The notes: a model not told the origin generated them from the letters alone. 39,854 nt of DNA from Aggregatilineales bacterium (GCA_038214955.1 JBBQRJ010000001.1:1-39854), one strand, 5' to 3'. Positions 20,141 through 39,614 are shown, counted from the stretch's first letter. Numbers and translations: made by a program.

Positions 20141-20152
20141 CGCAGATTATCC

Positions 20153-20180: not shown

Positions 20181-20434
20181 AACTCTAACACACTCTGGTT
20201 AATAGTACCAATATTGCTTCTGAGGGGCTACTGAATGCACAGAAGTCGTCGCTTTTTATTGTTGCATACAAGAGATATCGTCAGCGAGACTGATACCCGT
20301 AAAGATTTTTTCAGAAGAATTGTTTTATGCACAAAATCACTATGCTCAATACAAGGTTCATGGGGAATATCCTCCTATGAACAGCCCTCCGTCAAAAAGC
20401 CGCTTCATGTGTGGCATAAAGCTAGGAATACCTC

Positions 20435-21742: not shown

Positions 21743-22701
21743 GTTTTTATGCCGGGATCGACTTGGGCGGCACGAAAATCGCTGCTGGCATTTTTGATAC
21801 AGAAAGCGGCAGGTTGATCGCTCACGATGTAATCCCCACGCACTCGCACGAGGGAATTGACGCTGTAATTAGACGGATGGTCGGAATCGTCCAGACCCTA
21901 ACAGATACAACCCAGGTGCGGTTGGAACGTATCGGCTTGGGTGTCCCCGCTGTCATTGATTATGAACGTGGGATGACGCTGCTCATGCCGAATTTAGCGG
22001 GCGATTGGTTTGAACGCCCCCTCGTTGCGGAAATGCAAGCGGCACTCAATCTGCCCGTCGCGCTGATCAATGATGCGCGGGCGTTCACGCTGGCTGAAGC
22101 GACCCAGGGCGCGGGACGGGGCGGCACGGTGGTCGCTTGTTTCACCATCGGCACGGGGATTGGTGGCGGGATTGCGATCAACGGACGTTTGCATCTGGGC
22201 TTAAAGAACGCGGCAGGCGAGTTCGGTCATCAAACGGTTGAGCCGAATGGTGCAGTGTGTGGGTGCGGCAATCGTGGGTGTTTGGAGACGCTTGCCAGCG
22301 GCTATGCGATCACCGCGCAGGGCGTGGAAGCAATGAAGCACGAGCAAAACGGGCACATTGCATTATTGGCGCAGCACGACCCCAAACGTGTGACGCCAGG
22401 GTTAATCATGCAAGCCGCTGAACGCGGCGACTCAACAGCGCGAGACATTCTCACCCGTGCCGCACAGTATATAGGCGTGGGCATCGCCAACATTTTGACG
22501 ATACTGAGCGCCGACAAGGTGGTTCTCGGCGGCGGTGTCTCGCAGTTGGGACCTTGGCTGTTTGATCCAATTTGGGCGACGGTACGCGAACGCTGCCATA
22601 CGATTCCTCTGGATCAGGTGACGATCACGCAGGCGGCACTAGGACAACACGCGGGCATTATCGGGGCATCACTCTGGGCATCGCAGCAGGGAACTTACTA
22701 G
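21739..22701 (+). CDS. ROK-family sugar kinase
   Basis: GIDLGGT, NDA, GTGIGGG and GEFGH...CGCGNRGCLE zinc motif; no N-terminal HTH. Confidence 0.9.
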   Translation: MSFYAGIDLGGTKIAAGIFDTESGRLIAHDVIPTHSHEGIDAVIRRMVGIVQTLTDTTQVRLERIGLGVPAVIDYERGMTLLMPNLAGDWFERPLVAEMQAALNLPVALINDARAFTLAEATQGAGRGGTVVACFTIGTGIGGGIAINGRLHLGLKNAAGEFGHQTVEPNGAVCGCGNRGCLETLASGYAITAQGVEAMKHEQNGHIALLAQHDPKRVTPGLIMQAAERGDSTARDILTRAAQYIGVGIANILTILSADKVVLGGGVSQLGPWLFDPIWATVRERCHTIPLDQVTITQAALGQHAGIIGASLWASQQGTY

Positions 22702-22714
22702 AGAAGGATACACA

Positions 22715-23509
22715 ATGACGGTTCATACAGAACCCGGTTTCGCATTCATTGATGGAGCGCTGGCGATTGTGCAGCGCATCCGCGATACACAAATGGAAAA
22801 TTTGGTAGCCGCTGCACAAATCTGTGCGGATTCGATTGCGGCGGGCGGTTTGGTGCATTTGTTCGGCACAGGACATTCTCGCATTCCCGTCGAAGAAATG
22901 TTCCCGCGTCACGGCAGTTTTCCCGGTTTTCATCCGATTGTTGAGTTGTCGCTCACGAATCACACTCAAGTCGTCGGGGCGAATGGTCAACGACAGGCGA
23001 TGTATTTGGAGCGCGTCGAAGGCTTTGGCGAAATCATCCTGCGTAATTTCGTATTCGGCACACACGATAGTTTCATGGTGTTCTCGAACGGTGGGGTGAA
23101 TGGTGTGGTGATTGATGTCGCGCTGGGCGCAAAACAGCGCGGGATGCCCGTGATTGGTGTCCTGTCAGTGGATCATTGTAAAGCATCAGGGGTGAAACAC
23201 AGTTCCGGTAAGACGCTCATGGACATTGCCGATGTAATCCTCGATAACGGCTCTGCGATTGGGGATGCGTTCGTCAAGATTGAGAACCTGCCTTACCCCG
23301 TTGCACCGGGATCAACGGTGGGTTACGCCGTGCTGGTCAATGCGCTCAAGGCGATGATCGCCGATGAATTGACGCGGCGTGGGCAGCCACCTCTGGTGTT
23401 GACCAGCAGCGCCTTGATCGGCAGCAAAGAGTCGGCGGAACTCTTCGACAAGACCTATGATGATTATCGAGCGCGGGTGGCACAGGTCTATGACACGTCT
23501 CGCAAATAA
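22715..23509 (+). CDS. SIS-domain sugar-phosphate isomerase-like protein
   Basis: LVHLFGTGHS, FSNGGVN, ADVILDN and APGST motifs; GAAAGGA RBS. Confidence 0.8.
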   Translation: MTVHTEPGFAFIDGALAIVQRIRDTQMENLVAAAQICADSIAAGGLVHLFGTGHSRIPVEEMFPRHGSFPGFHPIVELSLTNHTQVVGANGQRQAMYLERVEGFGEIILRNFVFGTHDSFMVFSNGGVNGVVIDVALGAKQRGMPVIGVLSVDHCKASGVKHSSGKTLMDIADVILDNGSAIGDAFVKIENLPYPVAPGSTVGYAVLVNALKAMIADELTRRGQPPLVLTSSALIGSKESAELFDKTYDDYRARVAQVYDTSRK

Positions 23510-24263
23510 AACCCTACTTATCACCGGGGCAGCAAGTGGAATCGGGCGTGCAACAGCGATTCACTTTACTCAGGAAGGCGCGAAAGTCCTGCTTTTGGAT
23601 CGCAACGCCGACGGCTTAGAGGAGGTAGGGTCGCTCATTCAAAGAGCAGGCGGGGAAAGCCATCTGTTTCAGGTGGATTTGACCGACGCGGCAGCAGTAG
23701 AGTCGGTATTGCATGACGCTGTCAACGTTTGGGGTGGACTGAATGGGGTCTTCAACGCGGCAGGCGGGAGTGGTCGCCGTTTCGGTGATGGACCGGTAGA
23801 TGCTTGCACGATTGAGGGGTGGGATAAGACCTTCGCACTCAACCTCAACAGCATGTTTTACGTGTGCAAATTCGCCCTGCCGTCTTTGCTCGAAAGTCGG
23901 GGAGCAGTCGTCAACGTGGCATCGGTGTTGGGCATGGTCGGAGGGGATGAAGATTTCGCCACCCATGCCTATGCTGCCAGCAAAGGCGCGATCATTAGTA
24001 TGTCGCGGGCGATGGCATCCTACTATGCCCCGCACGGCGTTCGCGTCAACGTGATTGCGCCCGGATTGATCGCCACGCCCATGAGTCAGCGGGCGCAAAC
24101 TGACGACCACATCCTCAGCCGCCTCTCCCAGCTTCAACCCCTGACGGGCGCTATGGGACAACCGGAAGACATCGCCACCGCCGCCGCTTATTTGATCTCT
24201 GATGAGGCTCGGTTTGTGACCGGAGCAGTTTTAACTGTTGATGGAGGGTGGACAGTCCGATGA
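23490..24263 (+). CDS. Short-chain dehydrogenase/reductase
   Basis: TGAASGIG, YAASK catalytic motif, VRVNVIAPG and VDGGW. Start placed at MTRLANK. Confidence 0.9.
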   Translation: MTRLANKTLLITGAASGIGRATAIHFTQEGAKVLLLDRNADGLEEVGSLIQRAGGESHLFQVDLTDAAAVESVLHDAVNVWGGLNGVFNAAGGSGRRFGDGPVDACTIEGWDKTFALNLNSMFYVCKFALPSLLESRGAVVNVASVLGMVGGDEDFATHAYAASKGAIISMSRAMASYYAPHGVRVNVIAPGLIATPMSQRAQTDDHILSRLSQLQPLTGAMGQPEDIATAAAYLISDEARFVTGAVLTVDGGWTVR

Positions 24264-25174
24264 TTCGTACCGTTACAGGCGACATTATGCCCGAACAACT
24301 TGGCATCACCTATCCCCATGAGCATCTCTTGACGCTTCCGCCAGCCAGCGTCAAAGATCGAGATCTTGAAATGTCGGATGAAGCGGTCATGCTGCAAGAA
24401 CTCAAGCACTTTTACACGGCAGGCGGACGTTCTATTGTCGAAATGACACCGCGTGATTATGGTCGTATGCCCGACGGGTTGCGCCGCCTGTCCCAACAGA
24501 GCGGTGTGCAGATTATCTGCATTACGGGTTGGATCAAACAAGCATCGTATACACGCTGGTCAGACGGACGAACCATCCACGAAATTGCAGACGAGATGAT
24601 CCGCGAAGTCATGGATGGAATCGGCGGGATAGGCATTCGCGCCGGAGTGATCAAAGCGGGGTCAAGCCTCAACATGATCACGGTGGAAGAAGAAAAGGTT
24701 TTTCGAGCGGCGGCTATTGCACATCATCAGACGGGGGCATTAATTTCCACGCATACCGAAGCTGGAACGATGGGCATAGAACAGGTCGAATTGCTGCGTT
24801 CCGAAGGTGTCTCCCCAGATCGCATCTTGATTGGTCATACGGATCGCAATCTGGATTGGGACATGCATCTCAAACTGGCGAATACGGGCGTAACACTGGG
24901 TTACGATCAGATTGCAAAAGAAAAATATTTCTCCGACAGCCAGCGCGTCGTTTTTATCAAGCGATTGATTGAGGCTGGGTTCGGCAAGCAGATCATCTTG
25001 TCAGGCGATCTGGCTCGCAAATCGTATTTCCCGAATTACAGCAGTTGGGGCGGTCCCGGCTTCACTTACGTCTTATGGCGTTTTGTCCCATGGTTGTACA
25101 GTGAAGGCGTAGACGCAGCAGCCATTGACGACCTATTGATCCACACGCCCGCACGGTTGCTCAATTTGAAGTAG
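24260..25174 (+). CDS. Phosphotriesterase-family metallo-hydrolase (lactonase/deacetylase-like)
   Basis: MIRTVTGDI, HEHL, VIKAG, STHT, IGHTD and SGD metal ligands; ATGA overlap with the SDR. Confidence 0.88.
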   Translation: MIRTVTGDIMPEQLGITYPHEHLLTLPPASVKDRDLEMSDEAVMLQELKHFYTAGGRSIVEMTPRDYGRMPDGLRRLSQQSGVQIICITGWIKQASYTRWSDGRTIHEIADEMIREVMDGIGGIGIRAGVIKAGSSLNMITVEEEKVFRAAAIAHHQTGALISTHTEAGTMGIEQVELLRSEGVSPDRILIGHTDRNLDWDMHLKLANTGVTLGYDQIAKEKYFSDSQRVVFIKRLIEAGFGKQIILSGDLARKSYFPNYSSWGGPGFTYVLWRFVPWLYSEGVDAAAIDDLLIHTPARLLNLK

Positions 25175-25249
25175 GGTGAAATACATGAACAGCGCTGTGA
25201 CACTCATGGAAATACAAAGAGACAACCTCATATTTTGAAAGGCACGATA

Positions 25250-27259
25250 ATGTATTTTGGTGTTGATTATTATCCAGAACATTGGCCCGAATCACGCTGG
25301 GAAACAGATGCCCAGATGATGCAGGATGCTGGCATTAACCTTGTTCGCCTAGCAGAATTTGCTTGGTCGAAAATGGAACCTGAAGAGGGTGTGTTTGATT
25401 TTTCATGGCTTGATCGCGCTATGAGCGTGCTGGCGAAGGTAGGTATCAAGATTGTTCTCAGCACACCTTCGGCTGCGCCGCCGCCTTGGTTATGGGCAAA
25501 AATTCCCGATATTGCATTAGTTGATGAGCGCGGGAGAACACGCACCTATGGCAGCCGCCGTGAATACAGCCCCACCAACGTAGCCTACCGTGAGCACGCG
25601 GTGCGTATAGCACAACAAATGGGACTACACTATGCGGGAAACACGCAGGTGGTGGGCTGGCAAATCGACAACGAATTTGGGGAGCGTTGTTATGCACCTG
25701 GCACCCGACTCGAATTTCAGCGTTGGCTGAAACAGCGCTATGGGTCGCTGGAGGCTCTCAATGCGTGTTGGGGAACATGCTTCTGGAGTCAAATCTATAC
25801 GGATTGGTCTCAGGTCCCCGTTCCTGTTCAGCTCATTCATGGACAGCACAACCCAAGCCTACAGCTCGATTTCTCGCGGTTTATATCGGATGTGTATGTC
25901 GAGTTTCAACAGCTTCAGGTAGATGCTCTGCGGGAAATCTGCCCGCCTGAGCAGTTCATCACCCATAACTTGATGGGATTTGGCTACCCCACACTCAATT
26001 ATTTTGATCTCGCCAGAACACTCGATCTGGTGACGTGGGACAACTATCCAAGCGGCTTCTGGGTCAAGACTCCAGAGATTGTACCTGCCCCTCTTGCTCT
26101 GGGCAGTGCCACAATGCGCGGCTTAAAGAAGAAAAACTTCTGGGTGATGGAACAGCAGAGTGGACAGGGCGCATGGGATATTTTGCCGCCTCTCACTCGT
26201 CCGGGGGAAATTGCGCTGTGGGCGTATCAAGCCATCGCGCATGGCGCAGATGCCATTGTATTTTTTCGCTGGCGTACCTGCCGCTTTGGAACAGAACAAT
26301 TCTGGCATGGCATTCTCGATCATGATGGACAGGGTCGCCGCCGCTATACGGAAGTCAAACAGATGGGGCAAGACATCGCCCGCATCGGCGATTTGATTGC
26401 AGGCAGCGAGGTGCGTGCTAGGACAGCCATTATGCTCTCATACGACTCGCGTTTTGCGTTTCAGTTCCAGAAAAACAACCCCGACTTCCTCTATGAACAG
26501 CATCTGACCGATTATTTTAGCGCACTCCACAGCGCCAATATTCCGGTTGACATCGTCTCCTCGCAAGATGACCTGACGAGTTGCGATTTCCTGATTGTTC
26601 CAGCACTCTACATCACAGAAAGCGAAACAGTCAAACATCTTGAAGCCTTTGTTGAACGCGGCGGCACACTCATCATGACAGCCCGCTCAGGAGTAAAAGA
26701 TCACACGAATATCGTTGTTGATCTGCCTCTGCCCGGTCTGCTAGCTCCCCTCTGTGGGGTCGAAGTGCAGGAGTACGACTCGCTGTTGACGGGTCAGAGT
26801 CGGGCGCTCAGATGTGTCACGTCTGAGATCGCTCAAGCTGGCAATGCAACCGTCTGGTGTGACATTCTAAAGCTCATCACCGCCAAGGTTCTGATACAGT
26901 ACGACGAAGACTTTTATTCAGGGCAACCGGTCGTGACGCTCAACAAAGTAGGCGCGGGGCATGTCATTTACGTCGGGACAATGGGAGATGAGTCCTTCAT
27001 TAAATCTATTGTCACTTATGGGGCTAATTTAGCGGGCATTACCGGACTCATGGAAACGCCCCCTAGTGTGGAAGTGATGGCTCGCTGGCAAGGAGAGACG
27101 CGCCTACTGTTTGTCTTGAACCATGCGAATACCGCACAGCAGATTACCCTTGAAGCTGACTTGATTGATCTCGTTTCGCAGCAGACACAAAGCGGACACG
27201 TCACTCTGCAACCCAAACAGGTCATGATTCTAAGCGATATAACAGGCAAGGTGTCTTAA
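25250..27259 (+). CDS. GH42 beta-galactosidase
   Basis: GVDYYPEHW, acid/base WQIDNE, THNLMG, nucleophile WVMEQQ, FFRWR and EQFWHG; C-terminal trimerisation domain. Confidence 0.92.
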   Translation: MYFGVDYYPEHWPESRWETDAQMMQDAGINLVRLAEFAWSKMEPEEGVFDFSWLDRAMSVLAKVGIKIVLSTPSAAPPPWLWAKIPDIALVDERGRTRTYGSRREYSPTNVAYREHAVRIAQQMGLHYAGNTQVVGWQIDNEFGERCYAPGTRLEFQRWLKQRYGSLEALNACWGTCFWSQIYTDWSQVPVPVQLIHGQHNPSLQLDFSRFISDVYVEFQQLQVDALREICPPEQFITHNLMGFGYPTLNYFDLARTLDLVTWDNYPSGFWVKTPEIVPAPLALGSATMRGLKKKNFWVMEQQSGQGAWDILPPLTRPGEIALWAYQAIAHGADAIVFFRWRTCRFGTEQFWHGILDHDGQGRRRYTEVKQMGQDIARIGDLIAGSEVRARTAIMLSYDSRFAFQFQKNNPDFLYEQHLTDYFSALHSANIPVDIVSSQDDLTSCDFLIVPALYITESETVKHLEAFVERGGTLIMTARSGVKDHTNIVVDLPLPGLLAPLCGVEVQEYDSLLTGQSRALRCVTSEIAQAGNATVWCDILKLITAKVLIQYDEDFYSGQPVVTLNKVGAGHVIYVGTMGDESFIKSIVTYGANLAGITGLMETPPSVEVMARWQGETRLLFVLNHANTAQQITLEADLIDLVSQQTQSGHVTLQPKQVMILSDITGKVS

Positions 27260-27264: not shown

Positions 27265-27755
27265 CCGTAGTGTCCGAAAAAGGGATTCGGACGGGTTAAT
27301 CTACTTCACGGTAGTAATCGTGGATGAGACCGCCTAAAACATCACGACATCGAACGATCCCTTCGCGTTCACAATTGGGTAGTTCGTCAGGACAGCGTTG
27401 TTCAATCCCTTGATGAGGTCGACGTTGATTGTAGAAGGCGACGTACTCGTCTAATACCTGTTGTAAGTGGGGTTGGCTGAAAATCAAAACAGGATCGAGA
27501 TATTCTTCCCGAATGGTTCGCACCCAGCGCTCGGCAACAGCGTTGGCATTCTGCGTTCGATAAGGGATACGCAGCACTGTTATCGCTTCGGACATCAAGA
27601 CGGTATCGAAAGAATGCGTGAACTTGGTATCCCGGTCATGGATGAGCGCTTTCGATTTGACCTAGAACGATTCGAGCTGCCAGAGCAGATTGCGCGACTG
27701 CTGTGTGACCCAAGCACTGGTCGGATGGGCTGTCGCCTGCGCGAGCAAGAAGCGC
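27265..27755 (-). pseudogene. Integrase-core (rve) IS transposase remnant with right end
   Basis: Minus strand: TAHPTSAWVTQQSRNLLWQLESF*VKSKALIHDRDTKF...PYRTQNANAVAERWVRTIREEYLD...RPHQGI...VLGGLIHDYYREVD*, with an internal stop at 27662-27664. End motif ccgtagtgtccgaaaa at 27265. Confidence 0.8.
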
Positions 27756-29184: not shown

Positions 29185-29847
29185 CTAGCCATACCTTTCG
29201 ACAAAACGTTGTAAGTCCAATAAATCATCGAAGCGTTGTTCCAGTAAGGATCGATCCCAGTCCCACCATGCAATGCGGAGCAGTTTTTCGATCACCTCAT
29301 CGCTAAAGCGTTTACGGATCGGTTTGGCGGGAACGCCAGCGACAATGTTATACGGCTCAACATTTTTGGTGACTACCGCCCCTGCACCAATAACCGCACC
29401 TGTCCCAATTTCGACTCCCGGCATGATCGTCGCATTGTGTCCAATCCACACATCATGCCCAATCACACATTGATGCGCCCGCCGCCACTCGAAGAATTCC
29501 ACGTCGTCTTCGCCAAAGCCGAACAATTTTCGGCGGTAAGTCATGTGATGCTGTGTGACGCGCTCCATCGGATGATTGCCGGGATTGATGCGAACATGCG
29601 AGGCAATGGAACAGAACTTTCCAATCTTCGCGTAAATGATTTGCCCATCCCCGGCGATATAGCTGTAATCATCGAAGCTCGATTCGCTGATGAGGGTATT
29701 TTCACCGATTTCCGTCCACGAGCCAATCTGTGACTCGTGAATCACAGCGGACGGATGGATAAAGGGGAGTTCACCGAGTTTCTTTTCCGTGTGATCGGGT
29801 TTAGGCAAATTGGATTTTGGGAACATATCGATGTAGTGTAATGTCAT
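29185..29847 (-). CDS. Hexapeptide-repeat (CatB/Vat-like) acyltransferase associated with phosphonate metabolism
   Basis: [46 protein letters not shown] and IAWWDW; overlaps the phnM stop. Confidence 0.85.
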
Positions 29848-31040
29848 GATCCGATGGGGACGCTCGTTGGTTGCATAAACCGGAGTGCTGTGCTATCGGA
29901 ATAGACGAGTGCGCCATTGCAGAAAGTCGCTCGTACACGAGGATAAGCGCCTTCTTCCAGAACGACAATATCCGCACGGCAGCCCACAGCGATTCGTCCG
30001 CGATCATGCAGTCCCACTGCATTTGCCGGATTTGCTGTGATCAACTTGACACTTTCGTGCAGAGGCAGAATTCTGTTGTGCGCCAGTTTGAAAGCGGCTT
30101 GGAGCGGTGCAGCCGGAAAATAGTCCGTTGCCAGAATATCGACAACGCCCGCTTGAATCGCTTCTAGGGCGCTTAAATTTCCTGTATTTGATCCCCCACG
30201 AAAGGCGTTCGGCGCTCCCATGATCACGTGCAGTCCACGTTCACGCGCAGCATAGGCGGCTTCCAATGTGACCGGGAACTCGCTGATCGTCACGCCCATC
30301 TCGGCTTGATCATGTACTTTCTGTACGGTGTCATCGTCGTGTGAGGCGATCACAATGTGATGCTCTCGTGCAACGCGCAGTACATCACGCACCACTGACC
30401 AATCGCGTTCCGCCTCTTTCAATTCTGCGATCCGCTGTTTGATCCGGTCAGCGATCGGCTCGACTTCATCTTCTGTGAAGCCGATCCACTCCGTAAGGAA
30501 TTGAATGTAGCGATTCGCGTCGCTGTACTGCCCCTGTCCCGGCTTGTGATCCATAATCGACACGAGATCGATTTGTTTTCGTTCCAGAAGATCGGTCAAG
30601 ATTGGGACAGTTTCTGGATTATTCACTTCAAACCGTGCGTGAACTTTGAAGTCGGCAAGCAGAACATCCCGCATATCATTCACCACGCGGATAATCTCTA
30701 CCGCCTTTTCCTGCCCACGAAGATCGTTGCTGTGCCATGCAAACCCAACGGCGGCGTAAGCGGTTGTGATGCCTGTGCCAACCAAGCGTTTATCCAATTC
30801 GTGAATTGCCATCTCAACCGGGAATTCGGCGCGAGGGCGCGGCTCGATGTCGCGTTCGAGCATATCGCCATGCAGATCAATAATACCGGGAATAGCGGTC
30901 AAACCGCGTAAATTGATTGCATTGGAGGGAGCAATGCCTTCACGGATTTCCTCAATGCGTCCGTCCTCAATGCGTAGAGCGCCGCTCTCAACGACGCGAT
31001 CTGGCAAAACCAATCGAAGATCACTCAACCACATAATCAT
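29844..31040 (-). CDS. phnM: alpha-D-ribose 1-methylphosphonate 5-triphosphate diphosphatase
   Basis: [35 protein letters not shown] and ATDY motifs. Confidence 0.95.
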
Positions 31041-31737
31041 TCTCCGTTGTCGGCAGTGTCAGCCGCACTTCTTGATCAATGAGATGTTGTATTTCTTGGG
31101 GATGGTGAAAGATGCCGATGATCGCCACCCCTTGCATTTTCAATTCGCGCAACCGCGCCATAAGGGATACGCGGGCGGCGCTATCGAGCGAGGCGGTGGG
31201 TTCATCCAGCAAAAGCAAGCGGAAAGGGTGAATCAATGCCCGCGCCAAATTGACCTTTTGCTGCTCTCCGCCAGAAAACGTCGTCGGGTATGCGCCCCAC
31301 AAATCCTGTTTGAGTCCAAATGCGGACAGCATTTCACGCGCACGTTCCAAGGCTGGTTCGAGGTCACTCCCTGCATTTAACAACGGCTCTGCGACCAATT
31401 CCAACGCACTGACACGCGGACGCGGATTCAAGAACTGCGTGACGAAGCCAATTTCCTCACGGCGCAAAATCGCAATATCGACATCTGCCGCGCATACCAG
31501 ATCAATGCTGCCGCGCCACGATTGATAGTAGGCATGTCCACCTGTTGCAAGATAGCTCCGGTAAAGGCAGCGCAATAACGAGGATTTCCCCGCCCCATTG
31601 ACGCCGCTCACGTGGATGAATTCACCCTCGTCTACCGTAAAATCAAGCCGATCAAATACGGGGATTTCGCGCCCCAGGTGATGAATGAAAAACCGCTTTT
31701 CTAAACCTTCAACTTGTAAGAGACGCACTCTTGTCAC
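31021..31737 (-). CDS. phnL: C-P lyase ATP-binding subunit PhnL
   Basis: GVNGAGKS, VTQFL..PR, PTTFSGGEQQKVNLAR, LLLDEPTASLD and GIFH. Confidence 0.93.
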   Translation of the reverse strand: MTRVRLLQVEGLEKRFFIHHLGREIPVFDRLDFTVDEGEFIHVSGVNGAGKSSLLRCLYRSYLATGGHAYYQSWRGSIDLVCAADVDIAILRREEIGFVTQFLNPRPRVSALELVAEPLLNAGSDLEPALERAREMLSAFGLKQDLWGAYPTTFSGGEQQKVNLARALIHPFRLLLLDEPTASLDSAARVSLMARLRELKMQGVAIIGIFHHPQEIQHLIDQEVRLTLPTTENDYVVE

Positions 31738-31740: not shown

Positions 31741-32562
31741 TCACAATTTCGCGTGGACAAGCTGCTGCGTATAAGCATCTTGCGGGTCGTTCAATATTTG
31801 ATCCGCCAGCCCCACTTCGACGATGCGACCATAGCGCATCACAATCACACGATCCGACAGGGTGCGAATCACACCGAGATCGTGCGAGACAATCACAATC
31901 GTGATATGGCGTTCGCGCTGCAAGCGTTTCAACGTATCGAGTACCAACGCTTGAACGGACACATCTAAGCCTGTCGTTGGCTCATCTAACAACAAAAGCT
32001 GTGGTTGTAGCGCCAATGCTTTCGCCAGTTGGACGCGCTGCTGCATCCCGCCGGACAGCACACGCGGCGGATCGTCCATACGATCAATTGGAAACTCTGA
32101 CGCAAGGAGCGAAGTCCGCGCTTTCGTCCGCAGCGTTTCGTAACGACGTTCCCCCGTGATCAAGAGGCGTTCCGCGACATTGCCGCTGCTGGTGAAGTTC
32201 ATCCGCAAACCCAAGAATGGGTTTTGATACACCATGCCAATGTGCTGGATTTGTACTTCGCGCCGTGCGAACCGATCCAGCGCGAACAGATTTTGCCCCG
32301 TCACGCCGGGAATGTTGAGCGTATATTCCCCTGTTTCTGGCTGTTCTTCGAGATTCAACAGGCGCAAAAGGGTGGATTTGCCTGAACCCGATTCCCCGAC
32401 AATCCCCAACACCTCGCCGGGATAAACTTCAACGTCTGCCGATTCCACCGCGTTGACGTGGCGGTAGCGTTTTGTCACACCCACCGCCCGCAGCATGGGT
32501 GGCGCATCGACAAAGCGCGGCGGGTCAAGCGGATAGGATCGGTGGTTTGAGATAGCCGTCAT
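31741..32562 (-). CDS. phnK: C-P lyase ATP-binding subunit PhnK
   Basis: GESGSGKS, GNVAERL, SGGMQQR, DEPTTGLDVSVQA and DPQDAYTQQLV. Start chosen at ATG 32562 (GAGGG upstream); upstream ATGs extend to 32586. Confidence 0.92.
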   Translation of the reverse strand: MTAISNHRSYPLDPPRFVDAPPMLRAVGVTKRYRHVNAVESADVEVYPGEVLGIVGESGSGKSTLLRLLNLEEQPETGEYTLNIPGVTGQNLFALDRFARREVQIQHIGMVYQNPFLGLRMNFTSSGNVAERLLITGERRYETLRTKARTSLLASEFPIDRMDDPPRVLSGGMQQRVQLAKALALQPQLLLLDEPTTGLDVSVQALVLDTLKRLQRERHITIVIVSHDLGVIRTLSDRVIVMRYGRIVEVGLADQILNDPQDAYTQQLVHAKL

Positions 32563-33475
32563 GGTAGAAATTACCCTCATCATCATAATAGGTTGCGCCC
32601 ACCGTCACCTCTTCGCCCGCACGACTCGCCGCTAACTTGAGCGCATAGCCGCTGTCCGACAGGTCATAATCTACCGTGCCATCGGGTTGGGGGAGTTCGT
32701 TCATGAATTTATTGGTCACGCCCGTCGTTTTGCACACACGCCCGCTCTGGTCTTCGACCTGAAACGGAATGTCCTCAAATTCGAGGGGATAAACATCCGT
32801 ATAAGGTGGCACAGCATAAAGGCGTTTCTCACGTCCTGCCGATAGGAGCGTCAAGTGTGCTGCCTGATGCAGTTTCGGGTTATCCCAACGTGGGATCGGG
32901 CTTGGGCTGATCATGTAGCGCCCGCCGACCATCGCCGGATAGCTTGCCCCCTGTACGTACTGCTTATAGCGGACAAGTTGTTCATACAGCACCAGCCACA
33001 TTTGACCGTAATCAGCGTCGGCGTGCATTTCTCGCGCCCGCGAAATCTCTGCTTCAACAGCGCGTAAGGGTTCGGGGTCAGGCACTTGTAGGATCAAGGC
33101 TTGCCCTTCAGACAGGATTTCTTCGGGGATACGGTGACGACTCTGGATGAGCGTGGCTTCTACGGCATCCGTCGTCGTCTGCGCTCCGCTCATGCGGGCG
33201 ATGAAGCGGCGAAGGTTCGCGGCATTGACCGAATCGTCTGCGCCCTGATCGATCACCTTCACGATGCTTTCGGGTCCCACCAGACTCAGCGTCACTTGCA
33301 AACCGCCTGTCCCCCAACCCCGCGCAATCGGCAGTTCACGACTGGCATACGGCACCTGGTAGCCGGGAAGGGCAATCGCTTTGAGGATGCGGCGGCGCAG
33401 CTCACGTTTAGCATACGGATCAAGATAGGCATAACTGTAATCGGACTGAGGCGTCGTCAGTTGTTCAAGCATCAT
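32525..33475 (-). CDS. phnJ: PhnJ C-P lyase catalytic subunit homolog lacking the Fe-S cysteine motif
   Basis: YAYLD...KAIALPGYQVP, GWGTGGLQVT, KVIDQGADD, RHRIPE, QVP.PEPLR, PSPIPRWD and AGREKRLYAVPPYT. Only one Cys in the protein. Confidence 0.93.
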   Translation of the reverse strand: MMLEQLTTPQSDYSYAYLDPYAKRELRRRILKAIALPGYQVPYASRELPIARGWGTGGLQVTLSLVGPESIVKVIDQGADDSVNAANLRRFIARMSGAQTTTDAVEATLIQSRHRIPEEILSEGQALILQVPDPEPLRAVEAEISRAREMHADADYGQMWLVLYEQLVRYKQYVQGASYPAMVGGRYMISPSPIPRWDNPKLHQAAHLTLLSAGREKRLYAVPPYTDVYPLEFEDIPFQVEDQSGRVCKTTGVTNKFMNELPQPDGTVDYDLSDSGYALKLAASRAGEEVTVGATYYDDEGNFYHDGYLKPPILSA

Positions 33476-34554
33476 GATCCTGCCTCTGGAACGGGTTTCG
33501 CTTCGGCGGCGTACATGGTGTTAATCACTTTACGGATGTTGTCCAAACTGCTGGCAAAGGTCACGTAATGGGGCAGTTTGAAATGGATACAAAAGCCCGA
33601 CGCCTCGACAGGTTCGGTGTGATACATAACAAATTCTTCGCGGTGGGCAGGATGAGGATTCGCCGCGTTCATTTCGAGATCGAGCGTTGCCCCCGCGATC
33701 AGCTTGACCTCGTTCCAACCCATTGTTGCCGAAAAACCAAGTGTGAATCCCTGCTTATTATCTGCACCACCGTTGTTGACGACCTCACAATGACTCACAC
33801 GCACACGCCCCGCGCTGAACACTTCTCCCGTCACCGGATGCTTGAGTTCAACCTCAGCATACCCTAGTCGTAACTCATTGACTGTCGGGTGAATCAACCC
33901 GTAGCCGCGCATACTCGCATAACCCAACGCGAGGATGCCACCTGTATCGGCACGGGCTAACGCTTGTAGTCGATGCGCTCTCGGCGCGGGGAAGGTGACG
34001 GTATCCGTTGTCACATCGGGGATTTCAGTTGCCTCGGTGATGTCTAGGGGGGCGTCGGGAAGTAGATTATTTTCACGATGCCAGTCTGCTACCGCCGGAT
34101 AGACTCGCGGTGCGGGCGACTCAGCGGGTTCAAACGTCTGATCCTCAGATGGACGACCTTCGAGAACGTTCATTTTCAGTAGGCGATGACTGTAATCCAA
34201 CGTCGGACCCAAGACCTGTCCGCCGGGAATGTCTTTGAATGCCGCCGAGATGCGCCGTATCGTGAACAACTGATCGGCTGAACTTGGCTGTGCATAGGCG
34301 ATGCGCGGCTGAGTCGCACGGTAGGCGCGGAGCAGTAACACCGCTTCATACAGATCGCCGCCCGTTTGGGCAATCGCCAGCGCCGCCAGTTCAGGCGAGT
34401 ACAGCGACCCTTCGCCCATGACTCGATCAACGAGATAGGGCAAGTTTCGCTCAATCGAACGCACTTGCTCTAAGGTGATGTCTCCGTTGAGCGATAGATA
34501 GAACTTTTCCGCGTTCTGGATCGCTTCTTCGCCACCTTTTGCAGCGACATACAT
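33472..34554 (-). CDS. phnI: C-P lyase subunit PhnI
   Basis: MYVAAKGGEEAI, DRVMGEGSLY, RRISAAFKDIPGGQVLGPT and HFKLPHYVTF. Confidence 0.95.
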   Translation of the reverse strand: MYVAAKGGEEAIQNAEKFYLSLNGDITLEQVRSIERNLPYLVDRVMGEGSLYSPELAALAIAQTGGDLYEAVLLLRAYRATQPRIAYAQPSSADQLFTIRRISAAFKDIPGGQVLGPTLDYSHRLLKMNVLEGRPSEDQTFEPAESPAPRVYPAVADWHRENNLLPDAPLDITEATEIPDVTTDTVTFPAPRAHRLQALARADTGGILALGYASMRGYGLIHPTVNELRLGYAEVELKHPVTGEVFSAGRVRVSHCEVVNNGGADNKQGFTLGFSATMGWNEVKLIAGATLDLEMNAANPHPAHREEFVMYHTEPVEASGFCIHFKLPHYVTFASSLDNIRKVINTMYAAEAKPVPEAGS

Positions 34555-34555: not shown

Positions 34556-35098
34556 CTATTTCGCTCCGATTCGCGTGCTGCGCGGAATGCCGATCACGTC
34601 CTGACCGCTGACCAAGAAAATGTCCCACCCTAACGGGTAACGGATGATCTGCTGGCGAAGCGTCCAGAATTCAGCGGGAATGCCGCCTATAGTGATGGTG
34701 TAGACACCTTGAATGCCCGCGCCGCTGAGGTCAACCGTGCTGCCCTGCCCCAACGTGCATCCGATGACAAGCGTAGCCGATTGGTCGGGATATTGCATCG
34801 TTCCCACACTGGCATTTTTGAGTTCGCCCAGGTGGTCAACCGTCAGCGCGGGGTAGAAGTGATAAGCGGCACGACCCGACGGCAGCGAACGTGCGCCCGT
34901 ATGACGCAGTACGGTTTCCAACTCGGCATCGGGCGTATAGAAACTCGTTTCAAGATCGAGCAGCGCCGCGCCCATATCGGCATAAGGGCTGCTCGTGGAT
35001 AATCGTTTTGATCTGCCGGGATAACTCAACGCCCACATCAACGCGAGGAAGGTTTCGCGGGCGCGGGCTTCGGCAGAGGTATATAGGGGAACGTTCAT
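34556..35098 (-). CDS. phnH: C-P lyase subunit PhnH
   Basis: FLALMWALSYPG, LLDLET, GT.QYPDQSAT, YPLGWD and IPRST. Confidence 0.9.
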   Translation of the reverse strand: MNVPLYTSAEARARETFLALMWALSYPGRSKRLSTSSPYADMGAALLDLETSFYTPDAELETVLRHTGARSLPSGRAAYHFYPALTVDHLGELKNASVGTMQYPDQSATLVIGCTLGQGSTVDLSGAGIQGVYTITIGGIPAEFWTLRQQIIRYPLGWDIFLVSGQDVIGIPRSTRIGAK

Positions 35099-35523
35099 TA
35101 AAACGTCTCCAGTTCTACGCGGGTGGCTTCGACAGCGCGTAAAAGTTGCTCATCTGTTTGGGCTTGGGTATTCGCCTGTGCTTCAACAAAGGCGAGGATC
35201 ACATCACGCAGGATGTTCGCGCTGATCGCTGCATCAAGCAGGGCAACCGCCAGCGATTGTTCTAAGTCGCGCCCCATGCACACCGCATAGCCCTGTGTGC
35301 CGCCGCTGATTTGCACATGCGATTCGGTCACAAGGATTTCGCCAAGATGAAATAGTGTGCCTTTTGACGGATCAGTGTAAGGAAGCATGACGAGTCCGCT
35401 TCGGTTGGTGATCACGGTGATCTCGCCTACTTGCGGGATAACATTCTCTGCAAGGGATTTGACAAGATCGGCGGGGGCATGGGTGAGAAGGGTTAAATAC
35501 TCTGCTTGCGAAAAATTGTTCAC
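35098..35523 (-). CDS. phnG: C-P lyase subunit PhnG
   Basis: GLVML, FHLGEILVT, GYAVCMGRD, ALLDA and ATRVELET. Confidence 0.9.
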   Translation of the reverse strand: MNNFSQAEYLTLLTHAPADLVKSLAENVIPQVGEITVITNRSGLVMLPYTDPSKGTLFHLGEILVTESHVQISGGTQGYAVCMGRDLEQSLAVALLDAAISANILRDVILAFVEAQANTQAQTDEQLLRAVEATRVELETF

Positions 35524-35606: not shown

Positions 35607-36659
35607 TTAGCGGGCGCCCAAGTCCAACTGCAAAAGGGTTGCAGTATCGCGCAGACCGTCATACAGGTTGTCCAGCGATTCCAAGCCCAAGAATTCGGTT
35701 GGATTCACGTAGTAGCGTTCCAGCGAAACAATCAATTCGGGATCGTTAGCAATGTCGAGCAGCGCCGTCTGAACGGCAGTCTTGAACGATTCCGGCAGAT
35801 CACCGCGCACGGCGAACGGCGTGTCAGGGATAACCGACGATTGGCTGAACACGACCACGTTACCATCGGGGCATTCAGCGTAAATCGCGTCAATTTCTTC
35901 CTGCGTCATGACTTCGTAGTAGGGGAATTCGCCTGTGTCCGCATTGTAACCGCACAGTTCGATTAAGCCTTCGTTCGCTTGCGCGACGAGGTTGCCATCG
36001 AAGGTTGCGCCTGCATCCGTGTTGCCTTCAACGACGCTCAACACCGACGAGGGGTGATTGCCTGCGAAAACAACCGTCGCAAATTCTTCGATCTGCGCCG
36101 GGTCAGTGAAGCCCATCGAGGTCATGATGTCGGTTGCGGGGATCAGATAGCCGCTGGTGGAAGCCGGGTCAGTGAACGAGAATGTGCGTCCTTCCAGATC
36201 AGCAACGCTGGCAATGCCCGAACCCTTGACCGTAAACAGGAGGCTGAAATAACCGGGGACGAATTCCGTTTCCGGGTTTGTTGCTTCTTCCAACGTGATG
36301 CCTTCTTGGAAGTTGGCAACCGCAATCGCTTCGGCGTTGGCTTCTTGAGCGGCGAGGACATACGAGAACGGACCGACTTCCATTGCATCGGCGCGACCCG
36401 CACGCATCGCTTCAATCACGGCGGTGTAGCTTGTACCCGTGATCAAGACTGTGCGAACACCCAACTGGGTCTCCAGATAGACGCGCAGGGGTTCAACCGA
36501 TGACAGGGCTTCTTCCACGTTATCGCCGGGGTACACACCAACGATGAACGTTTCGGGCCAACCCATGCGATCCGTTTCGGGGGTATCCTGAGCCGAGACG
36601 CTCAGACCGAACGCGACGAGGACGAGAATCATTGCAAAGACGATACCGAATTTCTTCAT
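35607..36659 (-). CDS. phnD: Phosphonate ABC transporter substrate-binding protein
   Basis: Signal peptide MKKFGIVFAMILVLVAFGLSVSA; SYTAVIEAMR, GPFSY, DPASTSGYLIP and FAGNH; AGAAAGGGA RBS. Confidence 0.9.
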   Translation of the reverse strand: MKKFGIVFAMILVLVAFGLSVSAQDTPETDRMGWPETFIVGVYPGDNVEEALSSVEPLRVYLETQLGVRTVLITGTSYTAVIEAMRAGRADAMEVGPFSYVLAAQEANAEAIAVANFQEGITLEEATNPETEFVPGYFSLLFTVKGSGIASVADLEGRTFSFTDPASTSGYLIPATDIMTSMGFTDPAQIEEFATVVFAGNHPSSVLSVVEGNTDAGATFDGNLVAQANEGLIELCGYNADTGEFPYYEVMTQEEIDAIYAECPDGNVVVFSQSSVIPDTPFAVRGDLPESFKTAVQTALLDIANDPELIVSLERYYVNPTEFLGLESLDNLYDGLRDTATLLQLDLGAR

Positions 36660-36693
36660 GCGATCCCTTTCTAAACAGGTCAAAAAATGCGTG

Positions 36694-37773
36694 CTAGATG
36701 AAACGACTCCGCACGTAGTTACTGAAACGGTCAATGACCGTGACAGCGATAACCAATATGATCACCGTACCCATCATCTTGTCGTACTGGAACAAGCCCA
36801 TGTACTTTTGCAGTTCGAAACCCACACCGCCCGCGCCGACATAACCCAAAATCGTCGCGTTGCGGACGTTATGCTCGAAGTAGACGAGGGAATACGAGAT
36901 CAGCAGCGGGACGGCTTGCGGTAGCACCGCATACATAAACGTTTGAATGCCGCCCGCGCCTGTTGCTTGTACGGCAAGCACCTGCTGCGGATCAATTTGT
37001 TCGATGGCTTCTGCGAATAGGCGAGACAGTGAGCCAACCGAACCGAAGATGATCGCCAATACGCCGGGAAAGGGTCCCAAACCGACGGCGGCAACGAAAA
37101 CCAAGCCGTAGATCAGTTCGGGGACGGAGCGCAGCGTATTTAAGACAAGGCGCGTAATTTGATAAATAGTGGGGTGTGGCGATACGTTTTTCGCCGCCAA
37201 CAGCGAGAACGGGATGGCGAGTAACACCGCGCCAATCGTGCCGATGATCGCCATTTGAATAGTCTCAACGACGGCGGTGACAATGGTGGGCCAGCCAATC
37301 GTGATTCCGGTGGCGTTGATCACATAGCGCACGGTTTCGACACCCGCATTCCGAATCAGCGAGATTCGTTGAGGTAAGTCGCGCTGCAATACCGGAACAG
37401 GTTGATCGCCTACATAGATGAACAGGCGATCTGTCGTGGCATAGGCGTTTCGGATAGCAACTTCCGCATCTGCTATTGAAACGCTCAGTTCTTCGCCGCC
37501 GTTGAGGAATGTCCGCTCTGTGCCACGCCCAAGCTCAAATTCGGGCGGAAACAACCGCGTGATGAAATTCCACACATCCGGTAAGCCTTCAACCAGCGTA
37601 CCCAAGCTGGTTTCCGTTCCGTTGACACTCCATGTCAGCAGACCTACCACGAGGAAAAACAGGATCACCACACGCCAGCTCAAGCTAGGAATAGGGCGTA
37701 GCAGTTGTTCGCGCAAGATTTCCGGCGAGACAGGGACAGGGGTTGGTTTAGCTGTGACTGTTTGATTGGTCAT
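36694..37773 (-). CDS. phnE: Phosphonate ABC transporter permease
   Basis: ETIQMAIIGT, RSVPELI, GLGPFPG, FAEAIE and FEHNVRNATILGYVGAGGVG. Confidence 0.92.
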   Translation of the reverse strand: MTNQTVTAKPTPVPVSPEILREQLLRPIPSLSWRVVILFFLVVGLLTWSVNGTETSLGTLVEGLPDVWNFITRLFPPEFELGRGTERTFLNGGEELSVSIADAEVAIRNAYATTDRLFIYVGDQPVPVLQRDLPQRISLIRNAGVETVRYVINATGITIGWPTIVTAVVETIQMAIIGTIGAVLLAIPFSLLAAKNVSPHPTIYQITRLVLNTLRSVPELIYGLVFVAAVGLGPFPGVLAIIFGSVGSLSRLFAEAIEQIDPQQVLAVQATGAGGIQTFMYAVLPQAVPLLISYSLVYFEHNVRNATILGYVGAGGVGFELQKYMGLFQYDKMMGTVIILVIAVTVIDRFSNYVRSRFI

Positions 37774-37782: not shown

Positions 37783-38622
37783 CTAAATTACAAGCCGCTG
37801 CGGTTTGACAACTTCTCGAAGGACGGGAAAGTCCTCAACGTCGTCGCGTGCCGACTTATCTTTGTCAAAGCGGTAGATTTGATCCATCACATCGTCGGTC
37901 AAACCTTCGGGCGATCCGTCATAAACGACAACGCCCTGTGCGATTCCGATCAAGCGATCCGCGAACTGCTTGGCAAGTTCAACCTGATGAATATTGATCA
38001 GGGTTAACACGCCGTCTTCACGGGCAACACGGGCAAGGTCTTTCATGACCTGAACGCTAAGTTCAGGGTCGAGACTGGCAACGGGTTCATCGGCAAGGAT
38101 AATTTTGGGTTCTTGCGTAATGGCACGGGCGATAGAGACACGTTGTTTTTCACCACCGGAAAGCCGATCCGCACGGGAATGAGCGCGATGGAGCAGCCCC
38201 ACCCGTTCTAGACTGCGTAGCGCAATCCGCCGATGCTCACGGTTGAAGTAGAACAATAGGCTGCCGATCCCCTGGTTATAGCCCAAACGCCCGGTGAGGA
38301 CGTTGGTGATGGCAGGCAGCCGTTCAACCAGATTAAACTCTTGCCAGATAAACCCAACGTAACGGCGTGCTTGCCGGAGCTGTGACGCGCTCATTTGGGT
38401 AATATCTTCGCCATCTAACGAGATGCTGCCAGAACTCGGCTTTTGCAATCCGTTGATGCAGCGCAGCAGAGTCGATTTACCAGCACCAGAACGCCCAATA
38501 ATCGCAATAATCTCGCCTTGACGGGCGGAAATGGTGATCGATTTAAGGGCTTCATTTCCGTTCGGGTAGACGACGCGTAGATCAGTTACTTGCAGCATAC
38601 GCAGTACATTTCCTTCGCTCAC
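37783..38622 (-). CDS. phnC: Phosphonate ABC transporter ATP-binding protein
   Basis: [32 protein letters not shown] and [10 protein letters not shown]. Confidence 0.93.
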
Positions 38623-38810: not shown

Positions 38811-39614
38811 ATGTATAACGGTTTTAGAAATGCAAGAATCGGCTGGTGGTTCTTGCTCATTGCAAGTATTCTGCTCTTGCTCCAGCGTTCAAAGCGACAG
38901 CGGCTTATCGTAATAGGACATCGCGGCGCAGCGGGACTCGCGCCTGAAAACACGCTGGCGAGTCTGCAAGTTGCACAGAGATTAGGGGCAACGTGGGTCG
39001 AGGTCGATGTACAGCGTACCCGTGATCAGGTATTGGTCATTTTGCATGACAACGACCTTGACCGCACGACCAACGGCACAGGCAAGGTGCTAGAGATGGA
39101 TTCTGAATATGTGGCTACCCTTGATGCGGGTTCATGGTACGGATCAAAATTCGCGGGCGAACCTATCCCCCGGTTGGATGAAGTGCTAGTTTTCATACGC
39201 GAACACAAACTGACCTTGTGCCTTGAAGCGAAAGACCCGGCGCTCTATCCCGGCATTGGCGAACAGCTTGCTACTGCGATTCGGGAACATCAACTCGTGT
39301 CGCAAGTCGTCGTCATTTCGTTTGATCGGGAATGGCTGCGCGGTTTCAGCGAATTTGCCCCCGATATAACGGTTGGCAGTTTATGGGAAACGCCTCACGA
39401 CGCGAACAGCGTTCCCACAGCACAGTATATTGATGTGTACTGGCTTACGGCGCTGCTCAATCCAACCCTCATTTGGCAAGCGCATCAAGACGGACGCAAA
39501 CTCATTGTGTGGACAGTAAATTCCCCCATCATCGCGTGGCTGCTGGTTTTGCTCGGCGTGGATGCGATCACTACAGACCGCCCGGACTTGATGCTTCCAC
39601 TAGCCGGAGACTAA
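38811..39614 (+). CDS. Glycerophosphodiester phosphodiesterase (GDPD/UgpQ-like) with N-terminal membrane anchor
   Basis: IGHRGAAGLAPENTLAS, VEVDVQRT, LHDNDLDRTT, IPRLDE, LEAK, WTVN and ITTDRP. Confidence 0.9.
   Translation: MYNGFRNARIGWWFLLIASILLLLQRSKRQRLIVIGHRGAAGLAPENTLASLQVAQRLGATWVEVDVQRTRDQVLVILHDNDLDRTTNGTGKVLEMDSEYVATLDAGSWYGSKFAGEPIPRLDEVLVFIREHKLTLCLEAKDPALYPGIGEQLATAIREHQLVSQVVVISFDREWLRGFSEFAPDITVGSLWETPHDANSVPTAQYIDVYWLTALLNPTLIWQAHQDGRKLIVWTVNSPIIAWLLVLLGVDAITTDRPDLMLPLAGD

What the first reader, a model, noticed from the sequence alone, without database searches (positions are those of the whole stretch)
32525..33475. PhnJ without its radical-SAM cysteines in an otherwise intact C-P lyase operon: possible non-canonical C-P lyase
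Established: E. coli PhnJ binds a [4Fe-4S] cluster via C241/C244/C266 (CX2CX21C) and uses G32 and C272 in radical C-P cleavage (segment ...PCAICGSTHSYLDE...FVCSDTDYC, recalled from memory). Seen: this PhnJ aligns through the same segment in frame (RVCKTTGVTNKFMNELPQPDGTVDYDLSDSGYA). Only C248 remains; the other three positions are T251, L272 and A278, and there is no other Cys in the protein. The G32 equivalent (PGYQ, G38), the RHRIPE His and the PhnI HxxxxH metal site (HFKLPH) are kept. All of phnGHIKLM is intact, and no CxxC or radical-SAM gene occurs elsewhere in the operon. Inference: three targeted substitutions with no other decay argue against random pseudogenisation. They suggest an Fe-S-independent (possibly O2-tolerant) mechanism, an external radical activase acting on the conserved Gly, or a changed reaction or substrate.
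Basis: partly seen in the sequence, partly recalled or inferred. Interest (0 to 1): 0.88.

Follow-up and report, generated by a model that had tools for sequence, protein, structure and literature searches.

The report
C-P lyase without iron-sulfur cysteines
The subunit PhnJ of this bacterium's phosphonate-splitting enzyme lacks three of the four cysteines that the textbook iron-sulfur radical mechanism needs, a loss shared by a large, conserved branch across four phyla, so these enzymes likely still break carbon-phosphorus bonds but likely start the reaction in a way nobody has described.

Summary
Confirmed. PhnJ (32525-33475, minus strand) keeps only C248 (E. coli C241); C244, C266 and C272 are T251, L272 and A278. 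This is not an error or decay. All 120 nearest homologues and all 80 genome loci share the loss, and about a fifth lack C241 too. They form one branch (also on an N-terminal-only tree and a PhnI tree) under purifying selection, in Chloroflexota, Deinococcota (Thermus HB8 plasmid pVV8), hot-spring Synechococcus and Alphaproteobacteria. The fold and every residue of the PhnI-PhnJ histidine metal and product pocket are kept. No radical-SAM activase travels with the operon, and glycyl-radical activases were found in only 2 of 5 genomes. Two candidate compensating residues failed as branch-specific. The same operons also lack a four-cysteine insert in PhnK that their sister group has. Best reading: a working C-P lyase whose cysteine site became a metal-free fold, with chemistry likely started at the histidine metal site. 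That step is inferred, not shown. Nothing on this in 10 paper searches. This scan found the same branch before, in at least 9 other genomes.

The parts
32525..33475 (-). phnJ, 316 aa, Cys-less branch; single phnJ found in this 87%-complete genome
32732..32734 (-). C248 (= E. coli C241), the only Cys; D or S in 25 of 120 homologues
32723..32725 (-). T251 in place of C244 (T/S in the branch)
32660..32662 (-). L272 in place of C266 (L/I/V in the branch)
32642..32644 (-). A278 in place of C272, the proposed thiyl residue (A/V/G/L and others in the branch)
33362..33364 (-). G38 (= G32, proposed glycyl radical); G in 93 of 94 branch members
33134..33139 (-). R113-H114 (= R107-H108, product-binding); invariant in 94 of 94
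32528..32620 (-). C-terminal extension (residues 286-316), conserved in most of the branch, shorter in the Thermus/Synechococcus and alphaproteobacterial members, absent from canonical PhnJ
33472..34554 (-). phnI; keeps metal ligands H222, H324, H329; carries W158 and W280, fixed in 84 of 84 branch members and rare in canonical PhnI
34556..35098 (-). phnH
35098..35523 (-). phnG
31741..32586 (-). phnK (ORF; true start probably a few codons later); no Cys and no four-cysteine N-terminal insert
31021..31737 (-). phnL
29844..31040 (-). phnM, over the equivalog cut-off
29185..29847 (-). hexapeptide-repeat acetyltransferase of phosphonate operons (TIGR03308), homologues in 50 of 81 loci
35607..36734 (-). 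phnD; Thr, not Tyr, at the cap position that marks phosphite-specific binders
36694..37773 (-). phnE
37783..38622 (-). phnC, first gene of the operon

Best explanation
This operon belongs to an old branch of C-P lyases whose PhnJ has lost the four-cysteine metal site, and it likely still cleaves organophosphonates to ribose cyclic phosphate, with the radical likely started at the PhnI-PhnJ histidine metal site instead of at an iron-sulfur/SAM centre on PhnJ. Shown: the cysteines are replaced by residues that cannot hold a cluster (T/S, L/I/V, A/V/G/L). Predicted: the mini-domain folds as in E. coli, as a metal-free knuckle. Shown: every residue that binds the metal and the modelled product in the E. 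coli structure is conserved. Inferred: PhnCDE imports a phosphonate, PhnGHIL and PhnM make ribosyl-phosphonate 5-phosphate as in E. coli, and PhnKL open and close the site. Inferred and least certain (about 0.3 on its own): a redox-active metal in place of the Zn seen in aerobic E. coli preparations, perhaps served by an aromatic relay in PhnI, oxidises the bound phosphonate by one electron; the C-P bond breaks, the 2'-OH closes the ring, and the alkyl radical takes a hydrogen, so the cycle is redox-neutral.
For: Loss shared by 120 of 120 homologues and 80 of 80 genome loci. One side of one branch on three trees: whole PhnJ (99 rows, support 99), PhnJ 13-235 without the Cys region (94 rows, 95) and PhnI (84 rows, 99). 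Median pairwise dN/dS 0.19 against 0.30 for canonical PhnJ. AlphaFold model pLDDT 91.9, about 96-97 over residues 241-310; 1.5-1.6 A rmsd over 274-275 residues to E. coli PhnJ. R113, H114, Q130 and loop 53-56 invariant in 94 of 94; PhnI H222/H324/H329 in 84 of 84; these are the contacts named in PMC9947105, which also reports the Cys site 30 A from Gly32 and Gly32 31 A from the Zn in the open state. Only phnJ copy in this genome and in 4 of 5 named-strain genomes. No PhnX over cut-off and no PhnZ-type match in 5 of 5 genomes tested. Pho-box-like repeats before phnC in 11 of 46 loci against 1.8 in shuffles. A member, P0128 (ABD01166.1), is by recall the PhnJ of Synechococcus OS-B', which secondary papers say has a C-P lyase operon and grows on phosphonates (PMC5955973; PMC9600594). 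Three further proteins show the same three losses inside a canonical group.
Against: No activity of any branch member was measured here. The OS-B' link rests on recall for the strain's identity and on secondary citations; the primary papers were not held. By recall the operon-less strain OS-A also grows on phosphonates, and PMC3266647 mentions uncharacterised C-P cleavage activities in these Synechococcus, so growth alone does not prove the operon. No knockout is known to me. E. coli structures hold Zn, which is not redox-active, at the His site; no result here identifies the metal. No compensating catalytic residue was found: PhnJ Y43 and PhnI C322 also occur in four-cysteine operons and are absent from most or all of the basal branch. 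The positions of PhnI W158 and W280 are unknown, and fixed residues are expected on any long branch. The window itself has no match to the Pho-box pattern. The model may echo the E. coli structure, as 46 of its 133 alignment rows are canonical. A single origin of the two losses is not rejected (AU p=0.16).
Confidence: 0.45

Rival explanations
1. Changed substrate: the complex no longer makes radicals and cleaves only bonds that can break by polar chemistry at the Zn site (activated phosphonates such as acyl-, 1-hydroxy- or 1-amino-alkyl ones, or another P-X bond), with the 2'-OH as nucleophile.
For: The pocket is intact while all radical residues on PhnJ are dispensable. In 3 of 3 sampled proteobacterial genomes with the Cys-less operon a canonical copy is also present, which fits a division of substrates. 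PhnI has many branch-specific fixed changes. PhnD is closer to PtxB (91 bits) than to E. coli PhnD (33 bits).
Against: The PhnD cap residue is T, S or G and never the phosphite-specific Tyr in 59 of 59, which argues against phosphite. By recall OS-B' releases methane and ethane from methyl- and ethylphosphonate, which are unactivated; only an indirect passage was seen (PMC4400912).
Confidence: 0.25
2. A housekeeping Fe-S or radical-SAM protein encoded elsewhere supplies the radical or electron in trans, at Gly38 or directly at the substrate when PhnKL open the complex.
For: G38 is kept in 93 of 94. This genome has 16 radical-SAM matches elsewhere. The complex opens on ATP turnover. No genome-wide co-occurrence test was run.
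Against: Only 1 radical-SAM gene, on the other strand, in 80 loci of up to 10 kb each side (many loci are cut short by contig ends). Glycyl-radical activases pass the cut-off in 2 of 5 genomes, the same two that have a glycyl-radical domain, and not in this genome. The operon sits as a compact cassette in four phyla and on plasmids. G32 is Ala in P0121.
Confidence: 0.2
3. PhnJ still binds an Fe-S cluster or other metal at the old site, with non-cysteine ligands or cysteines lent by another subunit.
For: C241 survives in about 80% and is Asp in most of the rest. PhnI C322 is present in 80 of 84.
Against: The other three positions are Thr/Ser and hydrophobic residues; 15 of 94 members have no Cys after residue 236. 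No subunit has a Cys pair. PhnK lacks the four-cysteine insert in 89 of 89 read, plus 3 basal members. PhnI C322 is Ala in 4 of 4 basal members.
Confidence: 0.07
4. Dead gene or assembly error.
For: The residues essential in the E. coli model are gone; one of 80 loci (L074) is split into two frames.
Against: Independent assemblies and runs agree; purifying selection at least as strong as in canonical PhnJ; whole operons kept across four phyla.
Confidence: 0.03

Closest known systems
E. coli PhnJ in Phn(GHIJ)2/KL, alpha-D-ribose 1-methylphosphonate 5-phosphate C-P lyase (EC 4.7.1.1; PDB 4XB6, 7Z15-7Z19)
   Same: Same family, operon order and predicted fold (47-48% identity, 1.5-1.6 A); same His metal site, product contacts and G32.
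   Different: Lacks C244, C266 and C272; has a 30-residue C-terminal extension; no phnF, N, O or P in the operon; an acetyltransferase closes it.
Four-cysteine PhnJ of the Methylibium/Thiothrix type (L154, L159, L161), the nearest canonical group on the N-terminal tree (support 80, weak)
   Same: Shares the Cys two residues before the PhnI metal His and, in L154 and L161, Tyr at E. coli position 37.
   Different: Keeps all four PhnJ cysteines and a CxxC...CxxC insert in PhnK.
Glycyl-radical enzymes with separate activases (PFL/PFL-AE)
   Same: A conserved Gly could in principle be activated in trans.
   Different: No activase beside the operon, none over cut-off in this genome, no glycyl-radical domain.
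Zinc-free 'C-minus' forms of zinc-ribbon proteins (ribosomal proteins; recalled, not tested)
   Same: A Cys4 site replaced by Thr/Ser/Asp and hydrophobic residues with the fold kept; CxxCG becomes CxxTG, CxxSG or DxxTG in 87 of 94.
   Different: In those proteins the site is structural; in PhnJ it is held to be catalytic, which is what makes the loss matter.

Membership tests
PhnJ family (PF06007) | Profile match over the curated cut-off | tested here: met
   404 bits vs 25
PhnJ family (PF06007) | PhnJ fold including the C-terminal mini-domain | tested here: met
   Predicted model, Z 38, 1.6 A over 275 residues, model 10-285 on chain 4-279; prediction only
C-P lyase core complex | phnGHIJKLM complete and adjacent | tested here: met
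C-P lyase core complex | PhnI H219/H328/H333 and PhnJ R107/H108/Q124/loop 47-50 | tested here: met
   Invariant in 84 of 84 PhnI and 94 of 94 PhnJ; residues from PMC9947105
C-P lyase core complex | Cleaves an unactivated C-P bond to alkane and ribose 1,2-cyclic phosphate | not testable with these tools
   Only secondary reports for a relative
Radical-SAM PhnJ of the E. coli type | CX2CX21C cluster ligands (C241, C244, C266) | tested here: not met
   C, T, L
Radical-SAM PhnJ of the E. coli type | Catalytic C272 | tested here: not met
   A278; no other Cys in the protein
Radical-SAM PhnJ of the E. coli type | Gly32 | tested here: met
   G38; 93 of 94 in the branch
Radical-SAM PhnJ of the E. coli type | [4Fe-4S] and SAM dependence | not testable with these tools
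   Needs anaerobic reconstitution, EPR and assay
Glycyl-radical enzyme plus activase | Activase gene linked to the enzyme gene | tested here: not met
   1 unrelated radical-SAM/SPASM gene in 80 loci
Glycyl-radical enzyme plus activase | Activase elsewhere in the genome | tested here: inconclusive
   None over cut-off in this genome (87% complete) and in 2 others; present in 2 of 5; other radical-SAM families not excluded
Phosphite uptake and oxidation (PtxB-type binder) | Capping Tyr in the binding protein | tested here: not met
   T/S/G in 59 of 59, position placed by sequence alignment

The most novel reading that the evidence does not exclude
A self-contained C-P lyase that breaks the methyl-phosphorus bond and releases methane with no iron-sulfur cluster, no SAM and no thiyl cysteine, working in aerobes such as Thermus and oxygenic Synechococcus. 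The PhnJ cysteine site would then be a dispensable structural or activating module, lost perhaps twice, and the true catalytic centre of all C-P lyases would be the PhnI-PhnJ histidine metal site.
Probability: 0.35. Interest if true: 0.92.

Novelty: new variant of a known kind. Interest (0 to 1): 0.78.

Why it matters
The C-P lyase mechanism has not been reconciled with its structure: the cluster site, Gly32 and the product-binding metal site lie about 30 A apart (PMC9947105). A natural branch without the cluster ligands is the control that question lacks, and it includes a genetically tractable, crystallisation-friendly thermophile (Thermus thermophilus HB8, plasmid pVV8). If active, it gives a new route to aerobic methane and perhaps an oxygen-tolerant phosphonate-degrading enzyme. 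If it has another substrate, these genes are misannotated as EC 4.7.1.1 and miscounted as methane sources. Surveys that curate PhnJ by catalytic residues (PMC9381506 does so; its residue table was not seen) may drop the branch, which made up 14 of 16 PhnJ copies in a Deinococcota sample.

Tried and rejected
Compensating Cys in PhnI (C322, two before the metal His): first looked branch-specific (72 of 75 vs 0 of 22), rejected because it also occurs in four-cysteine operons L154, L159, L161 and is Ala in 4 of 4 basal members. Compensating Tyr in PhnJ (Y43, E. coli F37): rejected, also in canonical L154, L160, L161 and Phe in 3 of 4 basal members. Tyr-rich C-terminal extension as a universal radical site: rejected, truncated in the basal and alphaproteobacterial members. 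Phosphite specialisation: not supported by the PhnD cap residue. Second canonical phnJ in this genome: not found (87% complete). First fold on a 32-row alignment failed (pLDDT 40). PhnI-PhnJ complex prediction gave weak support only: score 0.38, best of 3 controls 0.00, runs agreeing in at least 0% of contacts, partner pLDDT at least 84; the mark was reached at 0.60 or under by 18 of 157 solved complexes and by both of the 2 of 215 mismatches that passed; a like complex is solved, so it shows likeness only and gave no contacts. No RNA holder listed for the gene. Pho-box pattern (recalled motif) not enriched in the window (4 matches vs 3.5 expected). Independent origin of P0408/P0412/P0420: favoured by the tree, not established (AU p=0.164 on a 32-row subset). 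The 50%-cluster search returned mostly fragments; 27 of 150 could be read through the segment and showed no further Cys-less type. Ten paper searches found no description of a Cys-less PhnJ; most subscription journals are outside the library.

Full report
Observation. The ORF at 32525-33475 (minus strand) is a 316-residue PhnJ (PF06007 404 bits) in the operon phnC-E-D-G-H-I-J-K-L-M plus a TIGR03308 acetyltransferase. Aligned with E. coli PhnJ it runs in frame through the cysteine segment; C241 is kept as C248, while C244, C266 and C272 are T251, L272 and A278. C248 is the only cysteine, and none of the eight subunits checked has a CxxC or CxxxC pair. G38, H114 and the PhnI histidines are kept. 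Three other assembled proteins of the same cluster have the same residues, and contigs of 3 of 4 laid runs cover the L272 and A278 codons without a coding change. The genome (87% complete; phylum Chloroflexota as judged from its nearest named relatives) has one phnJ match.

It is a branch, not an accident. All 120 best homologues (74-94% identity) lack cysteine at the three positions, and 25 of them also lack C241 (23 Asp, 2 Ser). All 80 loci from the genome collection agree; one (L074) is split over two frames. These searches were seeded with this protein, so they cannot give the branch's share. Even samples by family profile do: in Chloroflexota 29 of 401 genomes had a match, and of 28 full-length copies read 7 (own included) were Cys-less and 21 had three or four cysteines; in Deinococcota 14 of 16 copies were Cys-less; in Cyanobacteriota 1 of 4 full-length copies, the seed genome; in Pseudomonadota 3 of 20 genomes with a match, the seed genome among them, each beside a canonical copy. 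Named members include Thermus thermophilus HB8 plasmid pVV8, Deinococcus oregonensis, Oscillochloris, Chloroploca, Sinorhizobium sp. CB7 and Synechococcus sp. H55.6. The Cys-less rows form one side of one branch on a whole-PhnJ tree (99 of 145 rows, SH-aLRT 99; L074 dropped), on a tree without the cysteine region (94 rows after removing 5 duplicates, support 95; L160 dropped by a parsing miss) and on a PhnI tree (84 rows, 99). The roots are midpoint only. Pairwise dN/dS (pairs with dS 0.1-1.5, not independent) has median 0.19 in the branch against 0.30 in canonical PhnJ, and 0.36 against 0.48 over residues 236-280. Among 120 relatives of a three-cysteine variant, three proteins (P0408, P0412, P0420) show the same pattern, C241 kept and the other three lost, and sit inside a canonical group (support 96). 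A shared origin with the main branch was not rejected (AU p=0.164), so a second loss is suggested, not shown.

What is kept and what is gone. A model from a 133-row alignment (46 canonical rows) has pLDDT 91.9 and matches E. coli PhnJ at 1.5-1.6 A over 274-275 residues, including the former cysteine domain. The knuckle reads CxxTG, CxxSG or DxxTG in 87 of 94, and 15 of 94 have no cysteine after residue 236. PMC9947105 (abstract, sections 4, 9, 10 and passages read) models the cyclic-phosphate product at a Zn site between PhnI H328/H333 and PhnJ R107, H108, Q124 and loop 47-50, with PhnI H219 joining in the open state. All of these are invariant in the branch (94 of 94 PhnJ, 84 of 84 PhnI). The same paper puts the cysteine site 30 A from Gly32 and says the mechanism could not be reconciled with the structure. 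PMC11978286 (passages) restates the standard roles of the four cysteines and Gly32. The branch also lacks a CxxC...CxxC insert in PhnK (0 of 89 read, plus 3 basal members; 2 loci had no phnK) that is present in 22 of 46 canonical operons and in the plasmid operons L159, L160, L161 and L164. The proteobacterial type lacks that insert while keeping the PhnJ cysteines, so the two losses are not obligately linked.

Looking for a replacement. Clustering of all ORFs in the 80 loci shows only the core genes, the transporter, the acetyltransferase (50 of 81 with the window) and a calcineurin-like phosphoesterase between phnK and phnL in 11. Four ORFs of 150 residues or more carry CxxxCxxC; one is a radical-SAM/SPASM protein, on the opposite strand in one locus. 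Glycyl-radical activases pass the cut-off in 2 of 5 genomes, the two that also have a glycyl-radical domain, and not in this genome, which has 16 radical-SAM matches elsewhere. Gly32 is Ala in P0121. PhnI C322 and PhnJ Y43 looked like compensators but occur in four-cysteine operons too and are missing from most or all basal members. PhnI W158 and W280 are fixed in 84 of 84 and rare in 44 canonical sequences; their positions are unknown, so they are leads only.

Is it used for phosphonates? The Cys-less gene is the only phnJ in this genome and in 4 of 5 named-strain genomes. No phosphonatase over cut-off and no PhnZ-type match was found in 5 of 5 genomes. An 11-base-spaced Pho-box-like repeat (pattern recalled) lies before phnC in 11 of 46 loci against 1.8 in base shuffles, though not in the window. 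PhnD scores best against phosphite binders, but the capping Tyr that PMC5700983 (passages) shows to define phosphite specificity is T, S or G in 59 of 59 (some are second transporters nearby). P0128, accession ABD01166.1, is Cys-less; by recall it is the PhnJ of Synechococcus JA-2-3B'a(2-13) (OS-B'). Genome G957 encodes P0128 letter for letter with one match and no CxxxCxxC ORF among those listed in 20 kb. PMC5955973 (passages) lists that strain as having a full phn cluster and growing on phosphonates as sole P; PMC9600594 (passages) says OS-A lacks the operon and cannot grow in the dark on phosphonates, in contrast to OS-B'; PMC4400912 (passages) links this to mid-day methane as a hypothesis; PMC4477158 (passages) notes the genes in the B'-like strain. 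The primary papers (Gomez-Garcia 2011, Adams 2008) and Seweryn 2015 were not held. That OS-B' releases methane and ethane, and that OS-A also grows on phosphonates as P source, is recalled. PMC3266647 (passages) mentions other, uncharacterised C-P cleavage activities in these strains and variant C-P lyases with different substrate ranges. No knockout is known to me.

Mechanism. Shown: PhnJ here cannot hold a three-cysteine cluster or a C272 thiyl radical. Predicted: the fold and the His-site pocket are unchanged. Inferred: uptake, ribosylation and pyrophosphate removal go as in E. coli. The overall step, ribosyl-phosphonate to cyclic phosphate plus alkane, is redox-neutral, so it needs a radical initiator, not net reducing power (established chemistry). 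I favour initiation at the PhnI-PhnJ His site by a redox-active metal (overall 0.45; the metal step itself about 0.3). Rivals: polar cleavage of activated substrates only (0.25), a housekeeping partner in trans (0.2), a cluster with other ligands (0.07), a dead gene (0.03).

Novelty. It is a member of the PhnJ family and of the C-P lyase complex by sequence, context and predicted fold, but fails two defining features of the radical-SAM PhnJ. Ten full-text searches found no description; PMC10574752 and PMC11665274 (passages) do not mention it in what was read. PMC9381506 curates its databases by catalytic residues (passages); 12 of its 51 supplementary files were searched and the residue table was not seen, so whether it excluded this branch is open. 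Earlier reports of this scan describe the same branch in at least 9 other genomes; they are unchecked AI notes, and gave me two leads (the cyanobacterial member and a second loss) that I then tested. Verdict: real, conserved, unexplained; new variant of a known kind; interest 0.78.

Noticed in passing
window 7480-19225 (+): RiPP-like cluster: kinase-AAA-TPR protein (7480-10776), YcaO cyclodehydratase (10769-12955), ThcOx/nitroreductase (12965-14101), a 116-aa ORF (14180-14530) that looks by eye like a leader plus a core ending in a Ser/Cys-containing tail, a 149-aa membrane-fusion-like ORF, and a 1393-aa C39 peptidase transporter with two ABC units.
   Followed up: partly
L088-L116, L118, L119, L154, L159-L161, L164 (phnK): PhnK of many non-proteobacterial four-cysteine operons has a CxxC...CxxC insert before the Walker A motif (22 of 46 canonical rows), absent from E. 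coli-type and Cys-less operons; probably a zinc ribbon, not checked in the literature.
   Followed up: partly
P0313/L105, P0316: Three-cysteine PhnJ variants in which C244 is replaced and a His lies two or so residues on: possible intermediates.
   Followed up: partly
G002, G917, G921: Alphaproteobacteria with both a canonical and a Cys-less phnJ (G921 has three copies); good hosts for comparing substrate ranges.
   Followed up: partly
L035, L036, L044, L054, L061, L063, L065, L067-L069, L071: A calcineurin-like phosphoesterase sits after phnK in 11 loci, and a 2H-phosphoesterase-like gene is nearby in 6; candidates for the missing PhnP role.
   Followed up: no
window 38811-39614 (+): Glycerophosphodiester phosphodiesterase divergent from phnC, sharing a 190-base AT-rich spacer: a phosphorus-scavenging pair.
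   Followed up: no
window 888-6631 (+): Complete Mrp-type Na+/H+ antiporter operon.
   Followed up: no
window 19312-27259: GntR regulator divergent from a sugar-use cluster: FAD oxidoreductase, ROK kinase, SIS protein, SDR, phosphotriesterase-family protein, GH42 beta-galactosidase; integrase fragment at 27296-27598.
   Followed up: no
L004, L009, L019, L040: Records titled Bacteroidetes, Pleurocapsa and Gracilibacteria carry operons nested among Chloroflexota sequences: transfer or mislabelled bins.
   Followed up: no
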